From Mobula hypostoma (Eukaryota), in NCBI RefSeq assembly GCF_963921235.1, contig NC_086097.1, positions 142,602,001 to 142,666,000 of the forward strand: a stretch of 64,000 nucleotides of DNA. Direction: 5' to 3'. Below the pieces are notes generated by a model, which did not search any database, had not been told where the DNA came from, and worked only from the letters and a program-made list of their open reading frames with translations. The translations under genes were made by a program, and so were the position numbers. Numbering within the stretch: position 1 is the first letter of the stretch; each line of letters starts with the position of its first letter. Shown here piece after piece: positions 21,738 through 45,371 of this stretch.

Positions 21738-21940
21738 TCAGTAATGTGATGTTCCAATTATTTCCTTATTCTGCAAGCACAAACATTCCTCTTCCCAGTT
21801 GCCAGACTCATTGGAGTTGATGAGTTTTCATAAAGCCAGTTCAAGTATGGATGGACTGTGGGCTTCCGTCCATGATAATTCATTCATTAAGGAGTATCAG
21901 AATCTGTTGGTCTCAAGTAGGACAACTGGGTTGCTGGTGT
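21738..21940 (-). pseudogene. Decayed unknown gene, putative last exon
   Basis: Acceptor ctactttacattcattacag, phase 1. Reads DTSNPVVLLETNRF*YSLMNELSWTEAHSPSILELAL*KLINSNESGNWEEE...SHY*. Confidence 0.45.
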
Positions 21941-22289
21941 CTGTAATGAATGTAAAGTAGCCCCTTAATTTAATTCTTTCCTGCTGAGGTTTCACTGCAA
22001 GTGCTGCTGCTCTGCTTGTCCCCATTCAGCATTAGCAGAGAAGGAAAGATGTTTTTAATTGAGATCAAAGTGATTGAAGGAGAATGTGATACTCAGGGTA
22101 AAAAGAACTTCAACTAGTTCAGATTTGCAGAGGTCAAAGGTGAAAGACTGCACCCGCACAACTGGCATTGATAGTTGCTGTGTATGGAATCTATATACTA
22201 CCAAAACTCTCGTGCTCTGTTTGTCTGTTTGTGACCTCCAATTAGTGCAAACGGTGCATTACAGCAGCACTTTTTTTGGCTACATCAAA

Positions 22290-23325
22290 TTAAAATGCGC
22301 TAGCTTACAAAATGCAGGCAAAGTTCAGGGTTATACATGTGTATAAAATCGTCCATTCGCAAAAATCAGCAGGCTCCCTTTTAACCCGAGAGCCGATCTG
22401 CCATCGTGGAAAGCGGGACGTGACAGCCCGATGCATGCGAATGGCCAGCCTCAGCAGCGACACCTACCGCAGCAAAAGGGCAGGGCAGCTCTATTTCGAG
22501 GGGTCACATTCTGCTAATCATCATCAGCATGTGCAGGATTGGGACAGATCAAACTGCCACCCATCAATAAGAGATAATCAAATCTTATTGTAATGACGTA
22601 CTTCATGACACCCATAAAACCCTTTGCTGCAGTCAGAGGACAGTGGTGACTATATCACGTCCATTTAGAAGCGCTCCAACCACATCATCAAGAATAATCA
22701 GCATCCTTTGGTGTTAGTGCTTCGTATCTTCTATCTAGCATTTGGGTAAAAAAAAAGGTCAGCCTAATTATGCCGCCTGGAAAGGGAAGGGGGATATTAT
22801 GGTCAAGAGATGACGCCAAATGTCGTTGGTAAGTGGCAAGGAGAGGGAGAGGACAAGAATCAGACGAGGCCAGGGCTGCGTGACTCCAGGATCAAAGAGG
22901 ACAAAAAAAGATGAGAGAAAAGAGACAGAGGAGGAGAGGCATTCATGTCTCCAGGATCAGAGACAAAGAACAAACAGCAGAAGAGATGAAGTGATGGGGT
23001 TGAAAGGACTGCATGTCTCTAGAATGACAAAAACAGGCACAGAAGGAGGAGAGAGGAAGAGACAAAAGAGCTGAGAAATGCACGACTCCAGGATCAGAGA
23101 CAAAGAACAAACAGCAGAAGAGATGAAGTGATGGGGGATGAAAGGACCGCATGTCTCCAGAATGATAACAAGAGCAACAAGGGTGGCAGATAAACCAGAA
23201 ATGATGCCATTAAAAATGTCCTTCGTTAAATGAGGAACAGCTATATTTGCTTTGCTATGCATCTTCTTTAATAAACTTTGATTTTCTACTTCAGTTTCCA
23301 AAGCAAAGCAATACTAATAGCATTC
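22290..23325 (+). mobile_element. Possible decayed Gypsy-like LTR retrotransposon 3' end (integrase tail, PPT, LTR)
   Basis: KMQAKFR resembles the GPY/F region. Purine tract aaagggaaggggga at 22781 is followed by tattatgg (a TGTTATG-like LTR start), internal ~75-bp direct repeats, and AATAAA near 23270. Confidence 0.35.
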
Positions 23326-23368
23326 AGGAAAATTTAATGTTCATTCTGGTCACATCAGACTGCACTAC

Positions 23369-23457
23369 CCTTCTCTCAAAGGGTGCCCCAATGGATCACC
23401 CCGTTGTCTAGTATATTTATATTGACAGGTTTCGAAGGGTGAAAGCGTACGAGAGAC
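23369..23457 (-). pseudogene. Decayed unknown gene, exon
   Basis: attcattcactcag acceptor, phase 2 to 1, weak donor gtagtg. Reads SLVRFHPSKPVNINILDNGVIHWGTL*EK. Confidence 0.45.
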
Positions 23458-24189
23458 CTGAGTGAATGAATATCTCAGAATTCCCCTCTTCATTTTATTT
23501 CACCAAGAAGGTACTGATTGTTTTCCAAAGCTTCAACCTTCTGACCAGTTTATCTTTGAATGTAGTAAATGTATCACACAGATTTTTAAAGGAAAACAAT
23601 TAATGTGTCAGTACAGAGGCGTCACATCTCATTAGGAGAATGCTGTGAAGATGTTACATAAGAACATAGGAGCACTTGGCCCCCTCAAGTCTGCTCTCCC
23701 TTTCATGGCTGATCAGTCCCAGACCTTCTGTGCCAGTACTACAAAGCCCTCAAAAAATTATCTACTTTCTCTTCAATGAACTTGCCTTCACAACCCTCTG
23801 AACAAAGAATTCTGGGGATTTGACACTGTGTTCTAAATGACCACCTCCTAATCTTGCAAGTATGAGTTTGAGATTCTTCCACTAGTGGAAATATCTCAAC
23901 ATCTATGCTAAGATCTTACAATAAGATCACCCCTCATTTTTCCCAATGTCCAAAATAACGTGAATCGATTTTCATTAGCAGCTCGTGATAGAAACATCCT
24001 TTCATTCCAGGAATTAGGCTAATGAGTCTCTTGGCAAATATATCCTTTTTTAAACAAAGAAACATCCTGTACTGGTGTTCTCCCACATTCCAAAGATGTA
24101 CACGCTAGTAGGTTAATCAGTGACATAGGTGTTAATGGGACAGTTACCGTGCTGTACCTCTAAGCATAGTAAAAAAAATTGTAAAAAAA

Positions 24190-25440
24190 GTAGCCTATGT
24201 CCAAACACCTAGACCAGTATCATCCCAGTACCTAATAAAAACAAGATGGCAGGCCATAATAAGTACCACCCAGTGGCTCTGACAACCATCATGGAGAGCA
24301 TCAAAAGACTGGTCATGGCATGCATTAACTTAGGGCTTCCAGACAATCTTGATCCACTGTAATTCAGCTACTGCTGAAAGGAGTCTACAGTGGGTGCCAT
24401 CTCCCTGGCCCTTCACTAAACTCTGGATCATTTCGGCAGTAAAGAGAGCGACATAAAATCATTGTTTATTGACTATAGTGCCACCTTCACTACGATAATT
24501 CCAACCAATCTCTGGACCTTGGGAGTCATCACGTCCCTTTGCAACTGAACTTCCTGACTAACAGACCATAATCAGTAAGGATGCCACTATTATTATGAAC
24601 ACTGGTGCTCTTCAGCCCCTTTCTCTGCTCCCTATACATTCATGACTGCATGGGCCAGACTCTGCTTTAACTCCATCTACAAGTTTGTGGAGTTCCCTCA
24701 AAGTCTGCAAAGTAAAAGAGTGGTCATTGACTTCAGGAAGGTGGTGGTGGGGGCACAGTGCACGTGCTACTTCTACATACACAATTATGAGGTTGAGAAC
24801 GTCAAGTTCTGAGGAATGGACATCACCAATAGCCTGTCCAGATCCACAGCAAGAAGGCACGCAGATGCCTCTACTTAATCAGAAACCTAAAGAAATCTAG
24901 CATATCCGAATTGACACTTACCAAGTTTTATTGATGTACTATAGATGAATCACAGCTTGGTATGGCAATGGTTCTGTCCATGATCACAAGGAATTGCAGA
25001 GCTGTGGATATAGTTCAGCACTTTACAAAAGCTGGTCTCTCCCTCCATGGATTCGGTCTATACTTCACCCTAGCTTAGTAAAACACCAAGCATAATCAAC
25101 GACCTTACCCACCCTGGACATTTTCTCTTCTCCCCTTTTCCATCTGGCAGATAATACAAAAGCCTAAACTCACATACCAGCCGGTTTAAAAACAGCTACC
25201 ACCCAATTGTTATAACACTATTAAATGATTCCCTAGTATGTTAAGGTGAACTCATGACTTCACCATCTATCTTGCCCACACTGCACTTTCTCTGTAGCTA
25301 TTAGTTTATTCTGAATTCTGTAATTGTTTTACCTTGTTCTACCTCAATGCACTATGTAATGATTAGATCTGTATGAGCAGTTTGCAAGATGAGCATTTCA
25401 CTGTATAGTGACAACAATAAAGCAGTTCAGATTCTAACTC
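24190..25440 (+). mobile_element. Highly decayed Rex1-type LINE
   Basis: Remnants of RT motifs (PVALTTIIM, FIDYSATF, SIYKF, KEWSLTSGR frame) and a 3' end with aataaa and a (ttcagattct) tail. Confidence 0.7.
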
Positions 25441-26601
25441 TTGAAATAAAGGCAAATATGCAATTTGCTTACCTGATACCATGTTAGACAAGGAACAGAT
25501 GGATTCTTGTATCTTTTGCACATCTTCAATCTTTTTCCATTCAGATAAGAGCTTGAAGTGAACCTCACATGGTCCCAAGGTAGACTTCATTTGCCAAGTT
25601 TTCACCTACTCACTCAATGTACGTATATCCAGTTACAGAGTGCTAATATCACAACATGCTCTCCTACTGATTTTCATGTCATTGTCAAACTTGGATACCT
25701 TGCACTGTGTCCCATTTCCAGGTCCCATCTCCAGGTATAAAATGTAAATAATTGCAGGCCAAGAACTGGTCAGTGGGGCACTCCACTAGTTACGTCCTTC
25801 CATCTGCTTATACCATCTCTATCCTCTGTGCAAGAAACCATCTTAAATTAATTAATCTCAGCACACTACTTGAACACCAGCCGTTATGTGCACCTTGTTA
25901 AATATCTTCTGAAAATTCAAATATGCTGCATCTACAGGTTCCTCTCTGTCTACTCTGGATGCAGGTTACATTTTGTCAAAGTGCATTTACCTTTAAAAAA
26001 AAACACATTTACTTGGTTTGAGTAGATTAAGCTTCTTTAGATGACAAGCCTCTTCTTCCATCAAGCCAAAACTGTTGAAGGGAAAGCTGCAAGTAGTAGG
26101 GCAAAGAGAGGGGGAAGTTTCATGGGCTAGAGGAAAGAAATAGTCTGCAATGATGACTATGGAGCATTTTATTCAGTCAAAAAGAAAAAGGAAAATAGTG
26201 GAACAAGTCCTTCAAAGTTTACAAAATGCTGGACGCCCCTCTATCCTGAGGCTGTGCCCTCTAGACTCCCTCACCATGGGAAATATCCTTTCCACATCTT
26301 CTCTGTCTAGGCCTTTCAACATTCAAAAGGTTTCAATGAGATCTCCCGCGCACCCCCCCCCCATCCTCCTAAATTTCAGCGAATAAACTGACACTAGAAA
26401 TGCAGTAAATACAAGGGTAGAGGGCTTGGGGGTGGAGAAAGATTTATGGTTTTAGATGGCTTGAGGACAAGAAGGGCACTTGGAATTAAAGGGTGAAGAG
26501 GGAGGGTTTTATTAGAAGAAACTGAGATTAGGGACCATGACTAGGATTAGGTTGAGGGATTCATTCCATATCTTGCCACTTTTAGTGTTTAAATTCATAA
26601 C

Positions 26602-27339
26602 CTCTTGAGCACTATCCAAACCACATGGTTACCCACATTAACCAAGCAAGTTGGTACAAGCAAAGCCTAACTGAAGAAAGAAGGTGAGAATTATGAAAGA
26701 AACATCTGAAAAATGTACCTCTGGAAAGGTTTGTAGACTTAAAAGCAAGTCAGAGCTGTTCTTAGCCTCACATTTTAATCAGTTCAGTCTCTCTGTGCAT
26801 TTGGGAGGTATTCACTAGGTAAGTCAGGAGATAACGTGAAGTTAATGAAAAGCCTCCTCTCATTTATTAACTGAATGGTGAGCCCCTGATTTATTTTCTG
26901 TACAGTACTTAAGCTTTGAGAGAAATGGTACCTTTTCTTGTGTTTGCATCCAGCACATCAAACAAAGCAGTTCATTCAAATCTTTGCTATTCTCTGAAGC
27001 TGAAAAATATTTCTCCCACTTTGGGAAGCATATTTATGTTACCACCCGTCTCCAAAATAACTTTCAGCTTGGGAGGTTGGATGGTTATTTACTGTAAAAC
27101 CTCCTCAATTTGAGGTCTACGAAATAAAGAAAAATGTCAACCCTTATCAGACTGAAACCCAATCCATGTACAAATACAAAGTTACACCTAATTTCCACAG
27201 GTAAGACAGGATTTGAAGGAAAATTTACCTGTTGTAACTTGTTTTAATTTCTGACAGAAGCCTGCCCCTTGCGAAATTGGATATGGCATTTTCTGTTCTC
27301 ATTACACCATAAGATAGAATTACTTCCCTGTCATATTTC
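26602..27339 (-). pseudogene. Decayed unknown gene, cluster of four exon candidates (27339-27229, 27116-26932, 26814-26719, 26670-26602)
   Basis: Each is bounded by ag/gt. The 111-nt exon is fully open (KYDREVILSYGVMRTENAISNFARGRLLSEIKTSYNR). The 185-nt exon needs one frameshift. The 69-nt exon reads *ALLVPTCLVNVGNHVVWIVLKR. The last intron would be only 48 nt, which is a weakness. Confidence 0.5.
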
Positions 27340-28434
27340 CTGCATAAGATAATATTATCAAAGTGAAAGGCCTGTTTAAATTATATAAATTATTATTATT
27401 GGTTTATTATTGTTACTTGTACTGAGGTACAGTGAAAGATGAGTCTTGCATACTGTTCATATAGATCAATTCACCTCAACGGTGCATTGAGGTAGTACAA
27501 GGTAAGGCAATAACATAACTGCAGAATAAAATGTTACAGTACAGAGAAAGTACAGTGCATGCAGACAGTAAGGTGCAAGTTCACAATGAAGTAAATTGTT
27601 AAGTCAAGGGCCCATCTCATTGCGCTAGGGAGCCATTCAAAAGAAGTGGGACAGAAGATGTCCTTGAACCTACTGTACATTCTTTAAGGCTTTTGAATCT
27701 TCTGCTTGCTTGGGGTGTGGGATAGTAGGGTGAAGTTGGGGAGGAAGAGAGAATATCCAGGATAAATGGGATCTTTGATTATGCCGGCTGATTAGTAAGA
27801 GTGTCAAAGGTTATGATGAGTAAGGTCATCAAATTTTAAGGGGAGAAGGCAAGAGAATGGGGTTGAGAGGAATGATAAATCAGCCATGATGGAATGGCAC
27901 AGCCTAATTCTGATCTTATGTCTAATGGTCTTGTGGCCTTTCCTGAGACAGTAAAATATGTAGAGAGTCCACAGAGGGGAGGCTGGTTTCTGTGATGTGC
28001 TGAGCTGTGTCCACAACTCTGCAGTTTCTTGCAGTCATGGGCAGAAAGGTTGCCATACCAAACATGGTGGGGGAGGGATGGCAGTTGTTGTGGGTATGTG
28101 GGGGGGTGGATTATCATGGCTCCAGCTCATGCCGGATCTGAATGTGGCTGACTGCAGCCTTTCCCTCTACCTCATATTCAGCATTTCCAATTGGACCCCA
28201 TCTGGCTACTGGCTTCAACAGGCTTTTCCATAGCACAGAGAGCACTGGGATGTTAAAACCCATCACATTCCTGATTCCCCATTCCCATCTTAATCTCCAC
28301 TGGCTCCACTTGCCGCATAGCCCTCATCCTGATCATCATCCTCCCCTTCCCTTCCTGATCATATCACTCACTACACACACAGTTCATCAACAGTTCTCCA
28401 CTATTTGTCTCTGGTTCCATCTGCCATTCTCCTC

Positions 28435-30270
28435 AAAGTTCAAAGTAAATTTATTATCAATATCTATGTGTTAAACCCGGCTGGTGGCGTAGTGGCATCA
28501 GTGCTGGACTTCGGGATGAAAGGTCCCGAGTTTGAATCCAGCCGGCTCCCCTGCACGCTTTCCATCCGTGCTGGGTTACGAGCTGGTGATCTCCTTGGAA
28601 ACTCACCCGGCAGAAGGCAATGGCAAGTTACAGCCTTGTACGCGGTTCTGCACTACATCAGAGAGGCATGGAGGGAAATCGTCCACGAACCGGAGAAACT
28701 CTGGATGTGACGTACCTTTCCTTTTCCATCTATTTGTTACCATATATTACCTTCAGGTTAATTGTCTTGCGGGCATTTACAGGAAAAAAGTAAATGCAAT
28801 CAAATTTTATTAAGAACTTCACATAAACAGTCAGGCAGCGAATGTGCAAAGGAAGACAAACTGGGCAAATAAGAATAATACTGAGAATGAGTAAAGAATA
28901 ATACTGAGAACATGAGTTGTAAAGAGACCTTGAAAGTGAGTCTGTAGGTTGCAGAATATGTTCAGAGCAGTGGTAATTTGAAGTTATCCATGCTGGTTTG
29001 GGAGCCTAGTTGCTCTGGGGTAATAACTGCTCTTGAATCTGGTAGTGTGGGACTTAAGGCCAATCTCCTGCCAAATGGTAGTCGCGAGAACACAGTGTGG
29101 CCTGGGTGGTGGAACTCTTTGATGATGGATGCTGCTTTCTTGTGGCAACGCTCCTTGTAAATTTGCTCAATGGTGGGGAGGGGTTTTCCTTTGGTGGAGT
29201 GGTTGTATCTTCAACTTCCTGTAGTCTTTTCAGTTCCTGGGCATTACTGTTTCCTCACCAGGCACTGTTACAACCAGTTAAGATATTCTCCACCATGCAT
29301 CTATAGAAGTTTGTCAAAGATTTTGGTGATATGAAGAATCTTTGCAAACTTCTAGGGAAGTAGAGGTGCTGTTGTGCCTTCTTTGTGATGACACTAATGT
29401 GCTGGTCCTAGGACAGATTTTCAGATATGTTAATGCCAAGGAATTTAATGTTACTGACCCTCTCCACCTCCAGTCCTCTGATGAAGACTGGCTCATGGAC
29501 CTTTGGCTCCTTCCTCCTGTAGTTGATAATTAGCTCTTTGGTCTTGCTGACGCTGAGTGAAAGAGAGCTTGTTGTTGCGCCCCATTCAGCCAGACTTTCA
29601 ACCTTCTTCCTATATGCTGATTTGTTACCACATTTGGTTCGGCCAACAGTGGCAGCAAAATTAAATATAGCATTGGAGCTGTGCTAGGCCTCAGTCACAA
29701 GTAAAAGGTGAATCAAGCAGCGGTACTTAGCCTCTGTGGTTCACATGTGCTAATGGAGGAGATGATATTGCCAATCCATACCGACTAGGGCTGCAAGCAT
29801 CCTGATGTATGCATCTTCATCGTCCAGGTGTTCCAGAGCAGGTGAAGAGCCAATAAAATGGTGCCTGCTGTTCACCTGTTGTGTCGGTAGGCAAATTGGA
29901 GCAGATCCAGGTCACTCCTCACGCAGGAGTTGATATGCTTAATGACTAATCTCTTAAATCACTTCATCACAGTGGATGTAAGTGCTACTGGGCGATAGTC
30001 ATCAAGGCAGGTTACCATGTTCGGGTTAGTCACCAGTATGATTGATGCCTGCTTGAAGCAGGTGGGTACCTCAGGCTGCTGAAGTGAGAGGTTCAAGTGT
30101 CTATAAGCACTCCAGCTACTGATTAACATAGGTCTTTTGTACACAGTCAGGTATGCTGTCTGTGCCAAATGCTTTCCATCTGCACTGGAATTCACCCTCC
30201 TGAAGGATGCTCTCCCATTGACCTCAGAGACAGAGATCATGGGGTCATCAGGGGCTGTAGGGTTCGTGAA
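28435..30270 (-). mobile_element. Decayed Rex1-type LINE, containing a SINE
   Basis: Minus ORF 29959-30291 reads VPTCFKQASII...DDYRPVALTSTVMK. Tail caaagttcaaagtaaatttatt at about 28435. Confidence 0.75.
28477..28727 (+). mobile_element. tRNA-derived SINE
   Basis: A box tggcgtagtgg, B box gtttgaatcc, and a cctttccttttcc tail. Confidence 0.75.
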
Positions 30271-30849
30271 GGTGCCTTCATATTCTGTCACCTCTTCTCT
30301 AATGGTTTCCTGTCACCTCCTTCACTTATCAGCAGTGATAGCCTGAATATTCCTGATTCTCTCTCTCTAGCAGCTATCTCCAACCTCTTCCTTCCCTCCA
30401 CTCAGCTTGCTCCATCAGCCTGTCAATATTTTTTTCTCTTCGTCTGCCTCCAACCATCATTTACCCACCAGTGTCTCCCAAACCCAACCCATCCCCAACG
30501 CAACGTGCTATCATCTTACAGCCCTCCTCAATCCATCAATCCTTACCGCCCACTGTCGTTACTCCATATTTCTGTCTGTACTGGCCATCTCCCACCCTCA
30601 GTCCTGATGCAGGGTTTGACCTGAAATCTTGGCAATTCTTTTCCATTCATGGATGGTGCTTGATCTGTTGTGTTCATGTAGCAGATTGTTCATTGATCCA
30701 TCTCTCCAAAGCCTGAGGCTGCCAAGGAGAGAACTGCCTAATGGTGCTGACCAACTGGATGGGTTTAGAAACACGGGTCGCTTCAGCTGTAGCTGTGATA
30801 CATGGAGAATGGTTTTTAACATCTCTCAGAGAGAGAAAACCATCACAAA

Positions 30850-31180
30850 GGCTGAGTTCACTCAACCTATTCTCATAAGGCATGCTCTCCAATCCAGGCA
30901 ACATCCTTGTAAATCTTCTCTGCACCCTTTCTATGGTTTCCGCATCCTGTCTGTATTCAGGCGACCAAAACTGAGCACAGTACCCAAACGGGGTCTGACA
31001 AGGGTCCTATAAAGCTGTAACATTACCTCTTGGCTCCTAAACTCAATTCCACGATTGATGAAGGCCAATGCACCGTAGTCCTTCTTAACCACAGAGTCAA
31101 CCTGTGCGGCAGCTTTGAGTGTCCTATGGACTTGGACCCCAAGATCCCTCTGATCCTCCACACTGCCAAGAGTCTGCCAT
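30850..31180 (-). mobile_element. CR1 fragment flanked by Penelope-like pieces
   Basis: Reads TLGSVEDQRDLGVQVHRTLK...LQLYRTLVRP and QRRFTRMLPGLE. Confidence 0.85.
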
Positions 31181-31508
31181 TTATGCTGCCTGACCTGCTG
31201 AGTTTCTCTGGCATTTTGTGATGGTTTCCCTGGATTTCCAGCAATTGTATAATCCCTTCTGCTTATTATTACACTCATGTGACTAATTAACCTATACGTC
31301 TTTGGAATATATGAGGAAACCAGAACATCTGGAGGAAACGCCTGTGGTTACGGGGAGAATGTATTAATTCCTTAGAGAAGGTGGCGGAAAGGAACCTGGT
31401 TCGCTGGCATTATACTATTGTTACACTATCCACAAAGCTACCTCTATGGTTAGAATCTCTGTGAGATTCGCAAGCAATTTCTTTGCAGCTGGTGCATGCG
31501 ACATTTAC

Positions 31509-31647
31509 CTAATTATATCTAACACCACTCTCAGATCATGATCCCCAGATTAAGGTCCTAAATGAACCCAGTCCACACCAATGGGCAGGCCAAGTCTTAA
31601 GCAAACCAAACACTGGAATTCTGACAGATGCTCTCTTCCGAATTCTC
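31509..31647 (-). pseudogene. Decayed unknown gene, exon
   Basis: ctcttcccatag acceptor and AG|gtaaat donor, phase 1 to 2. Reads GEFGREHLSEFQCLVCLRLGLPIGVDWVHLGP*SGDHDLRVVLDIIR. The phases match both neighbouring exons. Confidence 0.55.
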
Positions 31648-32471
31648 CTATGGGAAGAGTTTACACTGGACAACAAAGATTTTGCTTCCTGAATACTTTT
31701 GGATGTGTCTTATAGATTTTAGGCAGCTGATCATGAAAATCACCATATTTCCCTATCACGCACCACTTTAAAAAAATCACCTATATTTGTTCTTGCAGTT
31801 GATAATTCAGATCAATTAAAAGGTTGCCCACAATGTAAGCAGAAAAGTTTTCTATCTTGTCCAGGCATGTATTTTCAGGAATATTTGTGATACAAAATGT
31901 CTTGCCAATGTTGGAACAGCCGTGATTTTTCCTGTTATATCTGTGGCGAGTATATGCTTAAATCTCAAAGATGGAGCACGCGTCCTCTTATTAAGAAAGC
32001 CTATGAGCTCTACTTTGGGTGTAAAATTGTCAACCAAGATAAAGCCTGGGCTCCACACATTTGTTACGCAACATGCGCTGTTGTTCTTTGAGCTTAGCTC
32101 AGAGGTACTCTGATGTCAATGCCATCCGGTGTCCTGATGATATGGTGAGAACAGGGGAACATGTGACAAGATTGCTACTTCTGTCTCACTAGTGTGTCTG
32201 GTTTCTCTGCAAAAAAAACAAGCAATCCATTGAATACACCAATATCCCTTCAGCCATGACACCTATGCCATGTGACGATAGTCTTCTAGTACCAATGCCA
32301 TTAGAGACATGGAGTCTAGAGGAGGCAGATGAAGATGCCATAATGCATGAGCCAGGAATCAAAAACAACACTGTTACAGATTTTGAACCCCTTATGTTGA
32401 GTAAGCCTCATCTGATAACTCAATCCAAGTTAAATGACATTGTCAGAGACTTGGGTTTGTCAGAGGCAAAA

Positions 32472-34228
32472 TAGTCATAGTCATACTTTATTGATCCCGG
32501 GGTAAATTGTTCTTTGTTACAGTAGCACCATAAATAATAAATAGTAATAGAACCATAAATAGTTAAATAGTAATATGTAAATTATGCCAGTAAATTATGA
32601 AATAAGTCCAGGACCAGCTTATTGGCTCAGGGTGTCTGACCCTCCAAGGGAAGAGTTGTAAAGTTTGATGGCCACAAGCAGGAATGATTTCCTATGACGC
32701 TTAGTGTTGCATCTCGGTGGAATGAGTCTCTGGCTGAATGTACTCCTGTGCCCACCCAGTACATTCTGTAGTGGATGGGAGACATTGACCAAGATGGCAT
32801 GCAACTTGGACAGCATCCTCTTTTCAGACACCACCGTGAGAGAGTCCAGTTCCATCTCCACAACATCACTGGCCTTACGAATGAGTTTGTTGATCCTGTT
32901 GGTGTCTGCTACCCTCAGCCTGCTGCCCCAGCACACAACAGCAAACATGATAGCACTGGCCACCACAGACTCGTAGAACACCTCAGCATCGTCCGGCAGA
33001 TGTTAAAGGACTTCAGTCTCCTCAGGAAATAGAGACGGCTCTGTCCCTTCTTGTAGACACCCTCAGTGTTCTTTGACCAGTCCAGTTTATTGTCAATTCG
33101 TATCCCCAGGTATTTGTAATCCTCCACCATGTCCACACTGACCCCCTGGATGGAAACAGGGATCACCAGTACCTTAGCTCTCCTCAGGTCTACCACCAGC
33201 TCCTTAGTCTTTTTCACATTAAGCTGCAGATAATTCTGCTCACACCATGTGACGAAGTTTCCTACCGTAGCCCTGTACTCAGCCTCATCTCCCTCGCTGA
33301 TACATCCAACTATGGCAGAGTTGTCCGAAAACTTCTGAAGATGACAAGACTCTGTGCAGTAGTTGGAAGTCCGATGTGTAAATGGTGAAGAGAAAGGGAG
33401 ACAAGACAGTCCCCTGTGGAGCCCCAGTGCTGCTGATCACTCTGTCGGACACACAGTGTTGCAAGCACACGTACTGTGGTCTGCCAGTCAGGTAATCAAG
33501 AATCCATGATACGAGGGAAGCATCGACCTGCATTGCTGTCAGCTTCTCCCCCAGCAGAGCAGGGCGGATGGTGTTGTACGCACTGGAGAAGTCAAAAAAC
33601 ATGACCCTAACAGTGTTCGCTGGCTTGTCCAGGTGGGCGTAGACACGGTTCAGCAGGTAGACGATGGTGTCCTCAACCCCTAGTCGGGGCTGGTAAGCGA
33701 ACTGGAGGGGATCTAAGTGTGGCCTGACCATAGGCCGGAGTAGCTCCAGAACAAGTCTCTCCAGGGTCTTCATGATGTGGGAGGTCAATGCCACCGGTCT
33801 GTAGTCATTGAGGCCGCTGGGGCGCGGCGTCTTTGGCACAGGGACCCTCCAGAGCCTCAGGCTCAGGTTGAATACATGGCGAAGTACTCCACATAGCTGA
33901 GGGGCACAGGCTTTGAGCACCTTGGTACTGACACCATCCGGTCCTGCAGCCTTGCTTGGGTTGAGACATTTCAGCTGTCTTCTCACCTGTTCAGCTGTGA
34001 AGCCCACCATGGTGGTTTCGTGTGGGGAAGGGGTATAGTCATGAGAGCAGGGTGGGGGACTGTGAGGAGGGGTAGGAGGGGAGAGTGGAATATGTGTTGG
34101 TTGGGGGCCGACAACAGATGGCTCATGTGGGGTCACAATGTCAAATCTGTTAAAGAGCAGGTTAAGTTTATTGGCCCTGTCCACACTGCCTTCAGCTCCT
34201 CTGTTGCTAGTTTGCCGGAAAGCAGAAA
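32472..34228 (-). mobile_element. Rex1/Babar LINE nested in the Chapaev3 transposase
   Basis: Reads NDYRPVALTSHIMK, FFDFSSAYNTI, TGAPQGTVLSPFLF, KGQSRLYFLRRLK. It has a (tagtca) tail and a gcaaaa duplication at 32466-32471 and 34229-34234. Confidence 0.9.
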
Positions 34229-34830
34229 GCAAAAGCAGAATTACAGGGTTCAAGACCGCAAGGATGGAATCAGCTGTCACCAGGAACAAAATTTCTGTGA
34301 AGGATTTCGATATTTGAGACAGATGTTTCCCAAAATAACTGACGCCAAGATTAAGGAAGGTATTTTTGTTGGTCCACAAATCAAACAGGTCATCAATGAC
34401 AGGCAATTCGAAGACCTTCTAGCGGGACTGGAGAAAATCGCATGGAAGGCTTTCAAGGATGTTGTTGAAAATTTTCTTGGCAACTACAGAGTGCCAAACT
34501 ACGTGCAGTTGGTTGACAACATTCTTCAATCATATGCAAATGGCACTGTCAGTGATGAGCATGGTGAAAGGCTTCACCGGGACATCGCGGTCATGGAGAA
34601 ATGGTATCAGGGCAACTGGATTCCATCAATGCTGACTGATTATTGTTGGACACTTAAGTGAGAAGCCTCATACACTGAGTACAAACGAAAATCATCAACA
34701 AAACACTTCTAGCTTAGTCGAACTATTGCTAAGTGTCAGCAGTGTTATGCAATTAAATGCATTTTATTCAATAAAAGTTAATTTCTTGTTTCTCCAAATT
34801 CCTGTGTGATACAAGTAGTCTGAAATTATA

Positions 34831-35695
34831 ACACGAGGAATTCTGCAGATGCTGGAAATCCAAGCCACACACATCAAAGTTGCTGGTGAACACAGCAGGC
34901 CAGGCAGCATCTCTAGGAAGAGGTACAGTCGACGTTTCGGGCCAAGACCCTTTGTCAGGACTAACTGAAGGAAGGACTAGTAAGAGATTTGAAAGTGGGA
35001 GGGGGAGGGGGAGATCCAAAATGATAGGAGAAGACAGGAGTGGGAGGGATGGAGCCAAGAGCTGGACAGGTGATTGGCACAGGGGATATGAGAGGATCAT
35101 GGGACAGGAGGCCCAGGGAGAAGGAAAAGGGGGAGGGGGGAAAACCCAGAGGATGGGCAAGGGGTATAATCAGAGGGACAGAGGGAGAAAAAGGAGAGAG
35201 AGAGAAAGAATGTGTGTATATAAATAAATAACGGATGGGGTACGAGGGAGAGGTGGGGCTTTAGCGGAAGTTAGAGAAGTCAATGTTCATGCCATCAGGT
35301 TGGAGGCTACCCAGACGGAATATAAGGTGTTGTTCCTCCAACCTGAGTGTGGCTTCATCTTTACAGTAGAGGAGGCTGTGGATAGACATGTCAGAATGGG
35401 AATGGGACGTGGAATTAAAATGTGTTTTTCCCCCTCCCCCTTTTCCTTCTCCTTGGGCCTCCTGTCCCATGATCCTCTCATATCCCTTTTGCCAATCACC
35501 TGTCCAGCTCGACTCCATCCCTCCCCCTCCTGTCTTCTCGTATCATTTTGGATCTCCCCCTCCCACTTTCAAATCTCTTACTAGTTCTTCCTTCAGTTAG
35601 TCCTGATGAAGGGTCTCGGCCCAAAACGTCGACTGTACCCCTTCCTAGAGATGCTGCCTGGCCTGCTGCGTTCACCAGCAACTTTGACGTGTGTG
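34831..35695 (-). mobile_element. Penelope-like element 3' end with an inverted partial pLTR
   Basis: GIY-YIG C-terminal peptide HFNSTSHSHSDMSIH...RLEEQHLIFRLGSLQPDGMNIDF (35261-35425), a long inverted repeat, and a 13-bp TSD gtctgaaattata at 34818-34830 and 35696-35708. Confidence 0.85.
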
Positions 35696-36039
35696 GTCTG
35701 AAATTATATTTGTGTTCTGCTTTAAGCGTGCTATCATAACCAAAATAAATTTCTGAGGAAGTAACGCTTTGGAAAAAAAAATTGCTGCCCATTGTTACCA
35801 AATAGAACAAAAGCATCAAAGATGCTCTCAGATTCAGAAATCTATTTGCCAAATTGTGGCTGTGCTGGCTTGTTTAAAGGACTTGCTGGTTAGTACCAAT
35901 CCCTTTCCTTTTGGCACTGCAGATCAGAATATTCTGAGAAACTGTCCTCACCCACCTGCTTATCATTTTGCCTGTTATCTTAAATTTGTCTTCAGTTTGC
36001 CAATCACGCTTGTTATAGTACATAGAAAAGTCACAGTAC

Positions 36040-36909
36040 AGGACATTGCGGCGAAAAAGTTCTATTCAAAATGTTCCAAGGAACATCTAAATAAGCCTGA
36101 TGCATTTTGCAAACAAGTCCTGTGGACTGATGAAGTTAAAATAGAACTTTTTGGCCGCAATGAGCAAAGGTATGTTTGGAGAAAAAAGGGTGCAGAATTT
36201 CATGAAAAGAACCCCTCTCCAACTGCTAAGCACGGGGGTGGATTGATCATGCTTTGGGCTTGTGTTGCAGCCAGTGGTACGGGAAACATTTACTGGTAGA
36301 GGGAAGAATGAATTCAATTAAATACCAGCAAATTCTGGAAGCAAACATCACACTGTCTGTAAAAAAGCCAAAGATGAAAAGAGGATGGCTTCTACAACAG
36401 GATAATGAACCTAAACACACCTCAAATTCCACAATGGACTACCTCAAGAGGCGCAAGCTGAAGGTTTTGCCATGGCCCTCGCAGTCCCCTGACCTAAACA
36501 TCATCGAAAATCTGTGGATAGACCTCAAAAGAGCAATGCATGCAAGACGGCCCAAGAATCTCACAGAACTAGAAGCCTTTTGCAAGGAAGAATGGGTGAA
36601 AATCCCCCAAACAAGAACTGAAAGACTCTTAGCTGGCTACAAAAAGTGTTTACAAGCTGTGATACTTGCCAAAGGGGGTGTTACTAAGTACTGCCATGGA
36701 AGGTGCCCAAACTTTTGCTTCGGGCCCTTTTCATTTTTTGTTATTTTGAAACTGTAAAAGATGGAAATAAAGAAGTTTTCTTGCTTAAAATAGTAAAGAA
36801 ATGTATCATCTTTAACTCCATGCCTTTTGGAAATCAATTCATCTTTTACTCAGCTATTCACAGTAACAGAAATTTTGACCAGGACTGCCCAAACTTTTGC
36901 ATGCCACTG
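36040..36909 (+). mobile_element. Tc1 (DD34E) transposon, 3' half
   Basis: WTDEVKIELF, QQDNEPKH and SPDLNIIE with 34 residues between D and E, one frameshift. The TIR ends gcatgccactg followed by TA. Confidence 0.92.
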
Positions 36910-37404
36910 TATACCTATCTAAGAATCTCTTAATTTCTTAATTATTCTCTTAATTAAGAATGCATCCCTAATGTATCTGGCTCTACAACCACCCTGGCAA
37001 TGCACTCCACAAAAACTTACCTCTGACATTCCCCTGATAGCTTCTTCCAATCACCTTAAAATTATGCCTTCAGGTACTAGCTATTTCCGCCCTGGGAAAA
37101 TAAAGGCACCAGCTGTCCACCTATGTCTCTTAACATCTTGTACATTTACCATCCTCCTTTGCTTTAAAGAGAAAAGCTCCTGTTGGCTCAACTTTTTCTT
37201 ATAAAATATGTTACTGTCTGTTAAAAGTTTTCTAACTAATGGCCTGTTAATTATTATTCCCAGCAGTCATGAGATTGCCTGTTACCTTAAATCTATCTTC
37301 AAGTTACTGATCACACCTGTCAGTTACAAGTTTACTGAGTAATGGCTTATTATTATTCCCAACAGTTATCAGTGGGATTTAATAAAAATCAATTAAAAAC
37401 TTAC

Positions 37405-38200
37405 CCTTGACTTAACCCATAGGGAATAGAGCCAAAGTGGAAGATATGAAGGTGGTTGTCCGTTGGTACCCATTATCTTGTATCTTGTTTAGAATTAATC
37501 TGTTGGAAAGAAAAAGACATGGAACCAATCTAAAAAGTGTTTGAGAGAAAGAATTTAAATAGAAGCAGCAGATTAAAAAGCGACAGGCCCTTGTATTTGG
37601 CATCCCTCCGTCTTATCTTTGTCCACCCCTCCCCCACCACATTTCTCCAGCCTCCAATGCCACCTCGAATGCTAGTAAATCGGCTGGAATTAATCCTGGA
37701 TTTTGGTTTGCGATGTCTGCATGAGATTAAGCCACAGATGCAGAGGCAGCTGCTCCATTCTTTCTAACTTTGATCATCACAGATGAGAGGAACAGGGAAT
37801 GGAATCCACATTCGGTGTATGCAGCTACAGTTTGGAGTGATCGATAGTAAGGGGGCTTGCTGAAATGGGGATTAAATTCATAACTACTGTAAAAGATTTG
37901 GGGCAATCCATGATCCAGCACTCCAGAAATAAATAGATCCATAAAAAGGAAGTCAGCTGATTCTTGTGTTTGATTTCTTTTGCCATAAGCTCCCCCCACC
38001 CCCCTTACACAACTTATCTGCTTTCAAAAACACACTTACATTTGCTGTAAGGAATTCAGCAGAAATCCAGTCACGATTTAGCAACCCACAGTAGGTTTTG
38101 ATAAAACCTCGCTTGTTCTTTGTTGAGAAGTACACTGTCTTGATCATGGCTGAAGTGTGAAGTCCATTTGGAAGTGAAGTTGCACCAACCATTGCATTTC
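37405..38200 (-). pseudogene. Decayed unknown gene, three exons (38200-38040, 37859-37638, 37499-37405)
   Basis: Donors gtaagt, gtgggg and gtaagt; acceptors cactag, ccccatttcag and tttctttccaacag. Phases 0-2, 2-2 and 2-1 chain into EMQWLVQLHFQ...SLQQI-KPPYYRSLQTV...NPGLIPADLLAFEVALEAGEM-LILNKIQDNGYQRTTTFISSTLALFPMG*VK, with few stops. Confidence 0.55.
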
Positions 38201-38499
38201 CTAGTGTTCAGAAGATTCATGAGAGATCTACTCAAGGTATTTGAAGTGATAAAAAAAGGGGCAAACATTTACTCTAAATTCAGGCCAAGACAATAATCTT
38301 AAAAGTTGAGGGAGGCATGGAAAAAAAGAAACACTTAGAACACACCAACTGCTGTGGAAATCAGGAACTTTACTCTTGAAAAATTTGCAACAAAAACAGA
38401 AAAGTATCGAAAACAGACCAGGCAGTATCTGTGGTAAAACAAAAGACTTAACCTTTCAAGTTGAAGATACATCAGTGGAACTAGGAAACACTCCTCCAC

Positions 38500-38860
38500 C
38501 TGGTTGAACTTGAATTTGTGTTGAACAATCTTTCCAATTCTCAGTTTCTCCCAATCAAAGGAGAATATTCATGAGCCCGAGCTACACCCGTCTTTTTATG
38601 GGATACATGGAGCAGTCCTTGTTTCAGCTCGAGGATGCTCCGATATACTTTAACCTCTGATACATCTCTGACTGTATTGCCACTCATATGCAATCTAAAA
38701 ATGCCACTACTTTTGCTGCCAATTTCTACTCTGCTCTCACCTTCACATGGCCTCTGACTCCCCCCTTCCTCTTCTGGATCTTTCCATCTTTTTCTCAGGA
38801 GAGGCCAGCAACAAACATCCACCACAAGCCAACAGACTTCATGGCTTTCTCCATCACACT
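38500..38860 (+). mobile_element. Decayed Penelope RT fragment
   Basis: Reads SYTRLFMGYMEQSLFQ, with LPFLDL-like and HHKPTD-like remnants. Confidence 0.55.
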
Positions 38861-39619
38861 TAGAATCATAAAGTAATCCAGAATGAAGAGGCCCTTCGGC
38901 TCCACACAGACCATGTTGCCCACCAATTGAGTCCCATTTGACAGTGTTTAGTCCACATCTCTCTAAACCCCTCTAACCATTTTGCAAGAGCTATTCTTTC
39001 AGCTCCTCCTCCTCCTCAGAGCTCCAAAATCATGGATTTAAAATGTGCATCAGTGGCACTTATAGAAGAGCACAAGAGAGAATGTGGCAGTGTGAATGAG
39101 AAACAGAGAGAGGCAATGGGCAGATATGAGTAGAAAGGATCAACAGATGGACAAAGAGGGAAGTGAGAGGAAATGGGGTTAAGAAAAAGGTGATGGACAA
39201 GCAGGGAACTTGGGTAAGGAAGGAAAGATGAAGGCAGTAGTGAGGAGGAAGAGAATGAAGAAAAGGGAAAGAGGGGATGCAGGGGACAAAAAGGTCATTG
39301 TGAGATTAATGACTGAGCCTAGTTACAAGGGACTGACTGATGGGGCACAGGGAACAAGTTATGGTAGGTACAGGCGTTAAGGAAATGGTATGTTGGGGAC
39401 AAGTAACTAAACAGGTGGGGGAAGAGGTGAGACAGATAATGAAGGGAATGTGGGGGCAAGTATGTGGAAGTGTGAGAAGAGGAATTAGAAGGCAGATATA
39501 GAAGCTACAGGCAATTACATCGGTGAGACAAGGGGACATTGGTGGTGAGGAAAGGGAAGAGGGAGTAAACTAGGAGGGAACCAAGCTGGAGAGCAAGTGA
39601 AAAAAAAACCACATCACTG

Positions 39620-40370
39620 GGAGCATTTGGCACACTTGTCGTCACGAGTCAGGGCAGTGAGTATAGGAAACAAAATGTTACATTAGTTATACAAAATGCT
39701 GGCGAGGCCATACTTGGGAGTATTGTGTACGGTTTTGGTCACCTTGTTGAAGGAAAGACATTATTAAACTAGGAAGATTTACCAGGTTGTTACCTGGACT
39801 TGGGAGCCCATGTAACAAGGAGAGGCTGAGTACACTAGGATTTTATCCCTGGAATGTATGAGGTTGCAGGGTGACCTGATAGAAGTATACAAGATCATAA
39901 GGGACATAGACAGGGTGAAGGTACATAAATACAAGAAGTAGATGCCACCTCTGCTTCTTCCTCCTTCCATTCCAGTCCTGATGAAGATCTCAGCCTGAAA
40001 CGTCAACAGTTTATTCATTTCCAATGATGATGCCTGCGTCCAGCATTTTGTGTGCCTGCGTCCAGCATTTTGTGTGAAAGTACAGTCTTTTCGCCGGGGA
40101 GAAGGTTGCTAAAAACAAGATCAGAAGTGAGAGAGATTTAAAAGGATCATCAGGGACAGTTTTATCATGCAAAGGGTGATGCATATTTGGAATGAGCTGC
40201 CAGAAACTGTGGTTGAGAAGGGCACATAAGCAACATTTAAAAGCCATCTACATAAATACAGGGATAGGAGTGGTTTAGAGGGCTCTGTGCAGATGGGACT
40301 AGCTCACTGGCAAGAGTAAGCATGGACAAGTTCGGCTGAAGGGCCACTTCCAACCTGTGTGACTATGATG
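39620..40370 (+). mobile_element. Decayed CR1 3' region with a short Penelope-like insert
   Basis: CR1-like ttttggtcacct...aggaaaga and ggtgacctgatagaagtatacaagatc. A hammerhead-like ctgatgaag...ctgaaacgtc lies at about 39978. Confidence 0.65.
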
Positions 40371-40799
40371 GAACATGTGATTTGGAGATGGTGTGAGGGA
40401 CAGAGGTGACGACTATGCAAGATAGTGAGAAGGGCTACAAAGAGAGCATGTGTGAGCTGGGGGTGCAGGGGCAAATAGTGTGTGAGGGACAAAACCAGTG
40501 TGGAAGCAGATGAGGGGATGTGGTGGGAGAATGCGCAATGGGGGGAGGGAGTGGCAGTGAAGGAGGGGTGGGAGATTGAGCATGGGGTTTCTGGGGAGAG
40601 GGGCTCCACAGGAATCTGACAGGCAAGGGATGAGGTCAGCAAAGAGCTTTATGGGAGTGCGAGTTGAAGTGTGCAAGAAAGTTATTATTTCTAAAATCTA
40701 CAGCAGTGATTTCTTATGGGGGTGGTCGCGGGGCATTAAAGGTTCTTGTGGGGGGAGGGGTTGGCACGGTGAGCTGCACCCTAACCTAAGGGATGAGAC

Positions 40800-42560
40800 C
40801 TGACTGACCGTGTCAATTTGCTTCAGTTGTCAATATTTGATGGACATTTCCAGTTTGTGTTAATTTTTTATTTAAATTTATCCTCTTTAATGATGGATAA
40901 CTCGCATGGCGCAATCTCTAGGAGTCTGAAGGCGGTGAAGCCTTGAATTTTAAACCTGCTAAGAAACAAACTACAATGTTACATACCTGGAGTACAGTTT
41001 TATTCCATTCCTGTCAGATCAGCAATACCCCATGAGTCTTATTTGTAATACTGTACTGTCTAATTAAGCCATGAAACTATTAAGATTGTAGGAACACTTC
41101 TGTAAGTCACACTGTAAAGGCTACTTATTGTTTTACTCAGTTTCAGAAGATGAAAGAAGCATTTGAAAAGTATTGCAGACTTGAGTCATTTGCTAAGCAG
41201 GCTAAAAATGACTTTAATAGTGGTCTCATGGCATTTCCAAAATGATAGCAAAGTGCGGAAAATCTCAAAATTGGTGGAAGATTAATAATGCCTGCAACAC
41301 ACACAAAACGCTGGAGGAACTCAGCAGGCCAGGCAGCATCTATGGAAAAAGTACAATTGACGTTTCAGGGCAAGACCCTTTGGCAGGACTGGAGAGAAAA
41401 AGCTGAGGAGTAGATTTGAAAGGAGGGGGGAAGGAAGAGAGAAATGCCAGATTGTAGGTGAAACTGCATTAATGTCTGCTGTAACAGAAGTGCTCACCAT
41501 TGTTCTCAAAATTGATAAGTCAACTCTGCGAGACGACCAGGCATTGCTAATAGCATATGTACGGTTTATCAAAAACAGAAAAGTTTTCATAAACTTCTCT
41601 TTCGTAAAAAGCTAAAACCAATTATCAATCTATGACAAGCTCAAAATGTACATCGAGGATAAAAGTATTCTGATTAGGAACAAGATGTCTTCTGTAACAG
41701 ATGGAGCACCATATATGACAGGTCACCATGCTGGTTTAGTGACACATTTTAAAAAAGACATTTCAAGTCTGCAATCCATTGTGTAATTCACCATCAACAT
41801 CTTGCAGCCAAAAACGTCAGCCAGCGACTTTTTAAAAGCATGTTTCTTCTAATATCTGCTATTAACAAAATGAAAGCTCATCCATTAAATAGCAGAATAT
41901 TTCACCAGTTATGGCAAGATAACAATGAAGAGTTGAATGCTTCCTTCTTCACACTAAAGTTTGTTGCTTGTCAAAGGGCTGCTGCTTAAAACAACTCTTT
42001 GATCTTTTTGACACTGTGGTTGAATTTTTGCTTAAAATTGACAAGAGCTTGGGAAACAAGATTGAACTTTTATGTGGAGATGTGGCATACCTAGCCAATC
42101 TGTATGACAAAATGAACATTCTAAATATGAAACTGCAGGGTGAGAATTTCAATCTGGTCCAGGCAAAAAGTGCAGTGTCCACTTTTATCGGAAAATTGGA
42201 AATATACAAGCAAAGTATTGGGAGATGAATATTCTCATAATTCCCCTGCATGGAAAGTATGGCACTCCCTTTCAGACTGTGATTTGCAAGAGTACTGCTG
42301 ACGCCTGCAGTCACTGAAGACGGATTTTCAGAATCGATTCAAGGGTTTGAACAATCTGGAAATTCCAGACTGGGTAATTAACCCATTTCTTTGCAAGATG
42401 GAAGAACAAGAAGAAAGTTTGCAAGAAATTATTGAAATTCAGAATGAAGAAGCAAAAATACTTTTCAAAAACGTCGTCTTTTAGGGTATGTGGTTACACT
42501 GTCAGACAAAGTTTTCTGGTCCTTGGAGAAGAGCCAAACTGCTCTTCATTGCATTTTCAC
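40800..42560 (+). mobile_element. Decayed hAT (Charlie/Buster-like) transposase region
   Basis: Reads TDGAPYMTGHHAG, (H)CVIHHQHLAAK, LSKGCCLKQLFDLFDTVVEFL...LNMKLQG and DWVINPF. A Penelope-like insert lies at about 41297-41467. Confidence 0.8.
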
Positions 42561-43191
42561 CCTCCTGCTACAGGAAGGAAAGCGTAGGAATGGATCAAGC
42601 ACAATGACAGGCACAATGGATTATGGGCATAACCAGGAGCAACGGAATGAGTGGGGAGTTGGTGAGGGCAAAAACATGTGAGAAAGTGTGCAAGAGTAAG
42701 AAAACACAAGGTGAGATCGAGCAAAGGATAAGTGAACAGAGTGAACACACAGGGAAGAGAGTAAAGATATGAGGTAGGGGATGAGAGATGGAAAGAGAAA
42801 GCATGGAGGAAAGGCAAAGGCTTGGCAAGAAAGTGTCGGGAAAACAGGGAAAGCGCTAGTTAGAGCACCCAGATAAGTTATACAGCAAGTACAAGTAATA
42901 ATAAAGGGAACAGTGAATACAGATAAAACAGAATTGTATGTCAGCCACATAAAATGTACATAACATGAAGATAATACAATGACTCCTGAGTAAAACTGTG
43001 CAAAATTGTTTACTTTCCAGTGAGTTACTGAGCATTAAATTTAATAAACTAGTGGCTCATTGTACGAGAAGAGCATTTAACCTTAGCTTTCCAGTCAGAC
43101 CCTTTCAAGTGTCCCTAATATGACCTCAGAGGGCTACTGCTTCCTTCATAATCACGCTGGTTCCACACACAACCTCACACAGGTATCTTAC

Positions 43192-44267
43192 CTCTTCCAA
43201 GAGCCACTTCACATTACAGGGGTCTGACCTTAACCTTAAATAATTAAAAAAAAACTCTAATTGACTATTTTAAAAGGAAGACTCCAAATCAGATTTCAAA
43301 CAATGTATATTTTTTTTACTTTTAAAAATACACGACATTCATCCCTGCAAATTTCCAGCTCCTAGCACCAAGTGAAATCTCTGCAAATTGTAAAAATTAC
43401 AAACGCACAAGCCACTTTAGCAGAGAGCACCCACTGAAACCATTTTCCAGAAAGTCAGAGAGTGAGAAAGAACATCTAGCAGCAGTCCTTCTTGGGTGTC
43501 AGCATGTCTCCTTGCAAGACTGTTTTCTCTAGCTGCTTAACCATTTCAGAAATAACTGGGGAACTGTTGTTCTATTTAAAAAATCGTTGTCTATAGTACA
43601 GAATCAAATTGATTTTCAAACTGGAGATTTTCTTCAAACTTTTACTACCAGCTACTAGATAATTCATGTATCTATTCTGCTACCCTCACCATTCCTCAGT
43701 CAGGGTTTTTAATTTAATTAATAATTAAAAATCCTAGGTAAATCAAACATTTTTTTTAAATAGCATATTGGCTCACGCTACATATGGTTGAGGCTAATGG
43801 ATGTTGGACTGAAATTAAAACTGTTGCAGTGAGGGAAACAGTGATGGGTACTAAGGCTCAGCTGCTCATTATAAATCCATTACTGTCAATTGGGACAGCG
43901 AAGGCTATGAATGAGCAACAAATCTGTTACGGCTCCCACAAGAGTTCAAAGCTCAGCCCACTGAATCTGGAAGTAGTAACCTCTGAGGTTGGTTGCGGTA
44001 GGGGAGGGGGAATAAAAAAGGCTAATTTAGTTATGCCAACACTAACTGTAGTGCTCAAAACAATGATCACGCACATATTTTGGGAGCAAGCCAGGTAAAT
44101 TGTGCCTTCTTAAAATAAAATTTGATGGCACCTTCTTGCTTGTTTCTACCACCCTTCCAAAAATCATTCCGACTTACAGAAGGTTCCTTGCATCCCAATA
44201 TGGCTGCTTGGGTGCTGCCTCGAGAGACCATTCACATGTGCGAAGCTGGATTGTCAGTGCCGACAGC
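43192..44267 (-). pseudogene. Possible upstream exons of the decayed unknown gene (44267-44178, 44108-44047, 43982-43931, about 43572-43407, 43234-43192)
   Basis: ag/gt-bounded open segments LSALTIQLRTCEWSLEAAPKQPYWDARNL (donor gtaagt), RHNLPGLLPKYVRDHCFEHY, VTTSRFSGLSFELLWE and LRSDPCNVKWLLEE (donor gtaaga; ends phase 0, matching the 38200 exon). Some introns would be only 64-69 nt. Confidence 0.35.
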
Positions 44268-45209: not shown

Positions 45210-45371
45210 TCAGTCAACGTCTGGTTCTTCTTTAGGCTTGTAAACTGCGCCAAATTTCTGCATGTACTTCTTGATGTATTCCTTGGTTTTATGCTTCACA
45301 TTTTCATTGCACTCCAGATCCTCAGGATTCTTGCATTGTTTCAGCTCCTTGTTCATGACACCATGAGTCAA
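45210..45371 (-). CDS. SETD2: SETD2 last coding exon (SRI domain C-terminal part)
   Basis: Acceptor ctctctctcatacag. Encodes LTHGVMNKELKQCKNPEDLECNENVKHKTKEYIKKYMQKFGAVYKPKEEPDVD*, near-identical to the recalled vertebrate SETD2 C-terminus. Confidence 0.97.
   Translation of the reverse strand: MTHGVMNKELKQCKNPEDLECNENVKHKTKEYIKKYMQKFGAVYKPKEEPDVD

What the first reader, a model, noticed from the sequence alone, without database searches (positions are those of the whole stretch)
21738..44267. Hidden, decayed multi-exon gene between SETD2 and NRADD (candidate unitary pseudogene of an unrecognised protein)
Seen in sequence: at least ten non-repeat islands on the minus strand, scattered among transposons, are bounded by AG/GT (38200-38040, 37859-37638, 37499-37405, 31647-31509, 27339-27229, 27116-26932, 26814-26719, 26670-26602, 23457-23369, 21940-21738). 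Their phases chain as 0-2, 2-2, 2-1, 1-2, 2-2, then one frameshift, then 2-2, 2-2, 2-1, 1-end. They give a protein-like product of roughly 450 aa, e.g. NPGLIPADLLAFEVALEAGEM-LILNKIQDNGYQRTTTFISSTLALFPMG*VK-GEFGREHLSEF...GLPIGVDWVHLGP*SGDHDLRVVLDIIR-KYDREVILSYGVMRTENAISNFARGRLL. Weaker candidates extend to about 44270, just past the SETD2 3' end. Most exons carry 1-3 stops, so it is not intact here. Inference: a gene lost in this lineage that may be intact in relatives. I do not recognise the protein, and I chose frames partly on phase compatibility, which risks circularity.
Basis: partly seen in the sequence, partly recalled or inferred. Interest (0 to 1): 0.72.

Follow-up and report, generated by a model that had tools for sequence, protein, structure and literature searches.

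The report
Probable fossil gene between SETD2, NRADD
Five short stretches in this ray-like genome probably are the remains of a long-dead spliced gene whose protein nobody can yet name, but the rest of the proposed ten-exon model is not supported.

Summary
The ten islands exist, with AG/GT ends (island 10 ends at a stop), between SETD2 and an NRADD-like gene. Only a core holds up. Splice-site picking blind to reading frame returns five consecutive exons (37859-37638, 37499-37405, 31647-31509, 27339-27229, 27116-27020). Spliced together they show coding-type codon periodicity: 1-2 of 1000 null sequences reach it at four of six settings, 32 and 422 at the other two. Islands 7-10 show neither periodicity nor stop depletion. 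Over islands 5-8, two related organisms carry the stretch single-copy and also broken, without a codon-position bias, so any gene died before they split. No homologue was found in any protein, family or structure library searched, and seven by-eye family guesses failed profile tests. Verdict: about 60% a fossil spliced gene of unknown identity, about 33% chance structure in old non-coding DNA. 'Unitary pseudogene' is unproven without an intact orthologue.

The parts
37638..37859 (-). Core fossil exon (222 nt, phase 2-2, one TAA); strongest codon periodicity; the junction codon with the next exon reads TGA
   Evidence: chi2 23.8 on 6 df; both ends are the best local sites; picked blind
37405..37499 (-). 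Core fossil exon (95 nt, phase 2-1, one TAA); strongest splice sites of the set
   Evidence: acceptor 11.4, donor 9.8, against 8.7 for the true SETD2 last-exon acceptor; picked blind
31509..31647 (-). Core fossil exon (139 nt, phase 1-2, one TAA), in a ~320-nt unique island between blocks of younger transposons
   Evidence: transposon blocks read
27229..27339 (-). Core fossil exon (111 nt, phase 2-2, no stop); 3-nt deletion in organism G
27020..27116 (-). Core fossil exon, revised 3' end (97 nt, one TAA). G has two 1-nt deletions here; D and G read a stop at 27112
38040..38200 (-).
26719..26814 (-).
26602..26670 (-).
23369..23457 (-).
21738..21940 (-).
42880..44330 (-). Alternating GC-richer blocks and T-rich spacers with some good splice sites (44327, 43234, 43192); candidate upstream exons, not shown to belong
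45210..45371 (-). SETD2 last coding exon (SRI domain); flanking gene
   Evidence: PF08236 E 8e-15
17078..18899 (+). NRADD/p75-like gene, last three coding exons (TM, juxtamembrane, Death domain); flanking gene
   Evidence: PF18422 E 2e-12, PF00531 E 2e-15; exon ends

Best explanation
The unique DNA between SETD2 and NRADD holds the fossil of a compact, spliced, protein-coding gene on the minus strand. At least five consecutive exons survive (37859 to 27020, 664 nt, 221 codons). Shown: the splice signals, the phase-consistent codon periodicity, the disabling stops, and (islands 5-8 only) decay in two relatives. Inferred: the gene was inactivated before organisms A, D and G split, has since drifted neutrally, and was pushed apart by younger LINE, SINE and DNA-transposon insertions; it makes no protein now. 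The protein cannot be named. The stitched 450-aa text is a patchwork of in-frame, out-of-frame and probably non-exonic pieces. Origin is open: a lost host gene (about 0.4) or a relocated copy or intron-bearing mobile element (about 0.2).
For: Frame-blind splice picking gives 16 candidate exons on this strand, five of them the consecutive core. Their spliced chain has directional periodicity z 3.76, against 1.4, 2.0 and 2.3 for the three control strand sets. 2, 2, 1 and 2 of 1000 Markov nulls reach it at the four five-exon settings. The chain of islands 2-6 has G1 0.315, G2 0.160, T2 0.324 and chi2 22.7, P 0.002 against random chains. Best frame equals phase-predicted frame in 5 of 5 core islands. 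From 26420 to about 27330 depth in D and G is 5-10 in most bins (up to 21 in a few), against about 60,000 at the neighbouring repeat, so this part is no repeat at 80% likeness. G has frameshifting deletions and two lost splice dinucleotides; 3 of 14 listed exonic substitutions fall on codon position 3, as in neutral DNA (40 of 87 rows were shown).
Against: No homologue: 0 hits among 1.84 billion representatives for island 2; 0 in three word-seeded searches covering islands 1-3, 5/7/8 and 6; no Pfam family near its cut-off; none in NCBIfam or PHROGs; only chance-level matches in the PDB. The periodicity leans on island 2: without it chi2 10.4, P 0.11. At the two four-exon settings 32 and 422 of 1000 nulls reach the score; the first thresholds were set knowing the core's scores. 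The count of candidate exons is not unusual (16 against 12.9 +/- 2.5). A whole-chain gene-finding score is only modestly high: 82.7 against a null of 51 +/- 13, maximum 90.8 of 60; 9.8 per kb against 8.4 in a control strand. Five stops with no frameshift in 664 nt is itself unlikely, about 0.01 at best among the settings simulated. The interval was pre-selected by a reader scanning many windows.
Confidence: 0.6

Rival explanations
1. Chance. The islands are old non-coding intergenic DNA left between young transposons; AG/GT pairs and open-looking frames arise by selection.
For: No homologue anywhere. Stop depletion vanishes against a best-of-three null. Control strands give 12-16 similar candidate exons. 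Summed frame-independent periodicity of the ten islands is not significant, P 0.23. Islands 7-10 behave exactly as this predicts. The donor at 26931 is absent in both relatives. Seven different families seemed to fit by eye and none held, which shows how easily such text looks protein-like.
Against: Five consecutive blind-picked exons keep one frame with the canonical G1>G2, T2>T1 pattern; 1-2 of 1000 nulls reach it at four settings.
Confidence: 0.33
2. Origin variant of the best reading (its 0.2 is part of the 0.6): the fossil is not a lost ancestral host gene but an intron-bearing mobile element or relocated gene copy that landed between SETD2 and NRADD in cartilaginous fishes and died there.
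For: The unique parts of the gaps are short (138 and 112 nt inside the core), against 750 and about 380 nt for the last two NRADD introns. In axolotl the assembly order is given as map2k3-nradd-setd2, and the passages seen name no gene between the last two (PMC6473073, passages). Old copies below 80% likeness would be invisible.
Against: No transposase or other mobile-element family matches. Single-copy at 80% likeness in D and G over islands 5-8. A young duplicate of an annotated gene should have found its parent.
Confidence: 0.2
3. The locus is still used: a recoded or edited gene, or a spliced non-coding RNA that keeps the splice sites.
For: Some splice sites remain as strong as a working one.
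Against: The stops are of all three kinds and differ between species; G has frameshifts and two lost splice dinucleotides; substitutions show no codon-position bias. No Rfam family in 18900-46000.
Confidence: 0.05

Closest known systems
Unitary pseudogenes such as human NRADD, GULO and UOX (PMC2864566; passages read)
   Same: Unprocessed exon-intron layout with stops, frameshifts and lost splice sites, at a fixed place between conserved neighbours.
   Different: Those are defined by alignment to an intact orthologue; none is known here, and the decay is much deeper.
Intron-bearing DNA transposons of fishes (Zisupton, Harbinger, Helitron and the like; recalled, from no call)
   Same: Compact multi-exon coding sequence at a lineage-specific place.
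   Different: No transposase domain and no second copy found; terminal repeats and target-site duplications were not looked for specifically.
SETD2-NRADD neighbourhood of other vertebrates (PMC6473073 and PMC3787675; passages read)
   Same: Same two genes side by side.
   Different: The passages seen name no gene between them; here 26 kb, mostly transposons, separate them.

Membership tests
Unitary pseudogene | Disabling lesions in the coding frame | tested here: met
   5 stops in 221 core codons; further lesions in D and G
Unitary pseudogene | Unprocessed exon-intron structure | tested here: inconclusive
   Supported for five exons; not for islands 1 and 7-10
Unitary pseudogene | Sequence similarity to a functional gene in another species | tested here: not met
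   0 hits. The searches took single exons or read-throughs and are weak against frameshifts; islands 4, 9 and 10 were not sent to the large protein collections
Unitary pseudogene | Intact orthologue at the syntenic position | not testable with these tools
   No vertebrate genomes searchable; no G000
Unitary pseudogene | No functional paralogue in the same genome | not testable with these tools
   No G000
Interspersed repeat | Many similar copies in the genome | tested here: not met
Ankyrin-repeat protein | Match to the 33-residue repeat profile | tested here: not met
   Local profile from 106 repeats: no island among the top 25 rows of 4260 chunks; core chain reached by 198 of 2000 shuffles
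SPFH / Band 7 domain | Match to the Band 7 profile | tested here: not met
   Bacterial profiles of 23 and 31 sequences: 128 and 765 of 2000 shuffles reach the core score; no eukaryotic profile available
MAGUK-type PDZ-SH3-GuK protein | PDZ, SH3 and guanylate-kinase domains in order | tested here: not met
   SH3 147 of 2000 (5-sequence profile); GuK not reported; PDZ 5 of 2000 but from a 19-residue piece, hhalign probability 3.6%; no PDB hit for islands 2 or 3 at E 10
Pyruvoyl-dependent arginine decarboxylase | Match to a PF01862-type profile | tested here: not met
   12-sequence profile does not report the core chain

The most novel reading that the evidence does not exclude
The core is the remnant of a vertebrate or cartilaginous-fish gene family (or intron-bearing mobile element) with no annotated member in current protein collections, still intact and unannotated between SETD2 and NRADD in sharks, skates or chimaera, and lost early in this ray lineage.
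Probability: 0.15. Interest if true: 0.6.

Novelty: new member of a known kind. Interest (0 to 1): 0.25.

Why it matters
If an intact orthologue exists, the fossil points to an unannotated gene at a well-studied conserved locus and dates its loss to before three ray-like taxa split. Without it, this is one more decayed stretch with no function. The case also shows how far a by-eye exon chain can be trusted: half of it survives blind tests, half does not.

Tried and rejected
Homology: phmmer over 1.84 billion representatives with island 2, 0 hits. Word-seeded searches with read-throughs 38200-37406, 27338-26604 and 27115-26933: 1222, 354 and 2 candidates, none scored. tblastn against plasmids: no match, and one chance match at E 4. 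Metagenome and viral contigs by peptide patterns: 379 and 29 candidates, 0 confirmed. An exact 19-mer in metagenome contigs: 15 matches, none longer than 23 nt against the window. PDB: weak RNase (E 0.015) and summed-repeat matches of 5-7 bits per repeat, judged chance. AlphaFold2 of island 2 alone: pLDDT 52, pTM 0.29, not used for a fold search. Families guessed by eye from recalled motifs and rejected on local profiles: ankyrin, SPFH, prohibitin-like SPFH, SH3, PDZ, GuK, PvlArgDC; most profiles were bacterial or small, so these are weak rejections. My first gene-finding null was miscalibrated (shuffles scored above the real sequence) and was replaced. RNA: no RNA holder listed. Run X9, only guessed to be RNA, gave one 157-nt contig crossing the exon-5 donor unspliced, and no joints in any of 4 runs; this says nothing about expression. 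Run X10 gave one 159-nt unique piece. No language-model look-alike search was obtained for any island. Literature: six searches (terms around SETD2, NRADD, NBEAL2, synteny, shark, batoid gene loss, ankyrin, TRP-N, SPFH); the listings shown (20 of 39, 5 of 5, 10 of 509, 25 of 110, 6 of 7, 5 of 5) named no gene between SETD2 and NRADD. No supplements were opened. Earlier scan notes: nothing alike by place or sequence.
Full report
Setting. The window is vertebrate DNA rich in LINE, SINE and DNA-transposon pieces. An NRADD/p75-like gene ends at 18899 on + (TM and Death domains), and SETD2 ends at 45210 on - (SRI domain). Earlier notes on the same genome call it a devil ray (unchecked). No whole genome is held, so vertebrate synteny could not be tested.

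Observation. All ten islands are at the stated coordinates, follow an AG and, except the last, precede a GT. None has a second copy in the window. A fixed random frame would give 28 +/- 5, but the best of three frames gives 14.5 +/- 2.8 and the islands' own best frames give 12. Stop depletion is therefore not evidence.

Removing the circularity. I scored splice sites with position weights recalled from general knowledge, without regard to frame. For islands 2-6 all ten boundaries are the best site within 60 nt; for islands 1, 7, 8 and 9 at least one is not. An automatic picker run on 8.5 kb of non-transposon sequence (segments chosen by eye and by self-hits) returned 16 candidate exons, not more than chance (12.9 +/- 2.5). 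Five consecutive ones are 37859-37638, 37499-37405, 31647-31509, 27339-27229 and 27116-27020. Spliced, they show G enriched at codon position 1 and T at position 2, z 3.76; the three control strand sets give 1.4, 2.0 and 2.3. Against 1000 Markov nulls, with the same search over all runs of exons, 2, 2, 1 and 2 reach it at four five-exon settings; at two four-exon settings 32 and 422 do. The signal leans on island 2 (chi2 23.8 alone; 10.4, P 0.11, for islands 3-6). Islands 7-10 show nothing: chi2 6.0, P 0.44, 8 stops against 5.8. A whole-chain gene-finding score is only modestly raised (82.7 against 51 +/- 13).

Relatives. Sixteen of 24 listed runs hold part of 26500-27500, from organisms A to H. 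Four runs were laid on 26420-27440. D and G cover it at depth 5-10 in most bins, against about 60,000 at the adjoining repeat. G differs at 78 of 889 letters in its long contig; D at 9 of 118, 10 of 211 and 22 of 382. Of 87 substitution rows 40 were shown, 21 of them shared by D and G. The counts fit ((A,D),G) best (inference), which would make those 21 changes on A's branch. G also has deletions of 2, 1 and 1 nt in island 6, 3 nt in island 5, and lacks the acceptor of island 7 and the donor of island 8. Of 14 listed exonic substitutions, 3 are at position 3. This is neutral drift: nothing here is under coding selection in these three organisms.

The peptide. In simulated neutral decay, at one indel per 7 or per 15 substitutions and divergence 0.05-0.3, no setting gives both 15 or more stops and at most one frameshift in 1370 nt (product of the two probabilities below 0.001 throughout). 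The 450-aa text therefore contains hidden frame changes or false exons. For the 664-nt core the best product is about 0.01, so even the core is somewhat too tidy. This also weakens the negative searches, which read one frame per exon.

Identity. Nothing was found among 1.84 billion representatives (island 2), in three word-seeded searches, in Pfam, NCBIfam, PHROGs or Rfam, or beyond chance level in the PDB. By eye the text suggested ankyrin, SPFH, SH3, PDZ, guanylate-kinase and pyruvoyl-decarboxylase motifs (recalled, from no call). Profiles built from fetched sequences supported none. I name no family.

How it most likely came about. A compact spliced gene on SETD2's strand was inactivated before A, D and G split (inferred), decayed neutrally (shown for islands 5-8), and was spread over 16 kb by later transposon insertions (blocks at about 37150-31720, 31400-27430, 26400-23660 and 23330-21990). 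It has no present coding function (inferred from stops and the relatives). Probability about 0.6, of which a lost host gene about 0.4 and a relocated copy or mobile element about 0.2; chance structure about 0.33; still functional about 0.05.

Comparison with what is known. It works like a unitary pseudogene in the sense of PMC2864566 (passages read), but fails the defining test of similarity to an intact orthologue, so it should not yet be filed as one. In axolotl the order map2k3-nradd-setd2 is reported, and the passages read name no gene between the last two (PMC6473073; PMC3787675 for the linkage). Six literature searches listed nothing on such a gene; the library lacks most subscription papers, and no supplements were opened.

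Verdict. Interest 0.25; about 0.6 if an intact, unannotated orthologue turns up in sharks, skates or chimaera (probability about 0.15).

Noticed in passing
window 38972-38544 (-): Stop-free frame of 143 codons running from a repeat into unique sequence just upstream of island 1, with a strong donor at 38741; no Pfam match. Could be a further exon or two.
   Followed up: partly
window 38200-37406 (-): Islands 1-3 and the gaps between them (180 and 138 nt, both multiples of three) lie in one frame with 7 stops in 265 codons; 4 of the 5 short gaps are multiples of three. A decayed unspliced frame is not excluded for this cluster.
   Followed up: partly
window 34856-35705: Two copies of a SINE-like element in inverted orientation, arms 92-94% complementary over about 300 nt.
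   Followed up: no
window 1-17077: No cysteine-rich TNFR-type exon of the NRADD-like gene was seen upstream of the TM exon in a quick motif scan; the ectodomain exons may lie outside the window or be missing.
   Followed up: partly
window 9852-10379 (+): Unique 175-codon open frame with an overlapping 77-codon hydrophobic frame, upstream of the NRADD-like TM exon; no Pfam match for the longer one.
   Followed up: partly
window 36233-36757 (+) and 60142-60820 (-): Two pieces of the same Tc1-like transposase (DDE_3, E 3e-12 for the first).
   Followed up: no
window 19249-21468 (-): Six blind-picked exon-like blocks lie between island 10 and the NRADD 3' end, several with strong acceptors; not tested as a chain of their own.
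   Followed up: no
G002, contigs C11-C18 (e.g. L120-L125, L054, L063): This 16-Mb genome, filed as a bacterium, holds ankyrin matches in ~100-nt pieces and SH3 domains, which look like intron-split eukaryote genes: probable host contamination.
   Followed up: no
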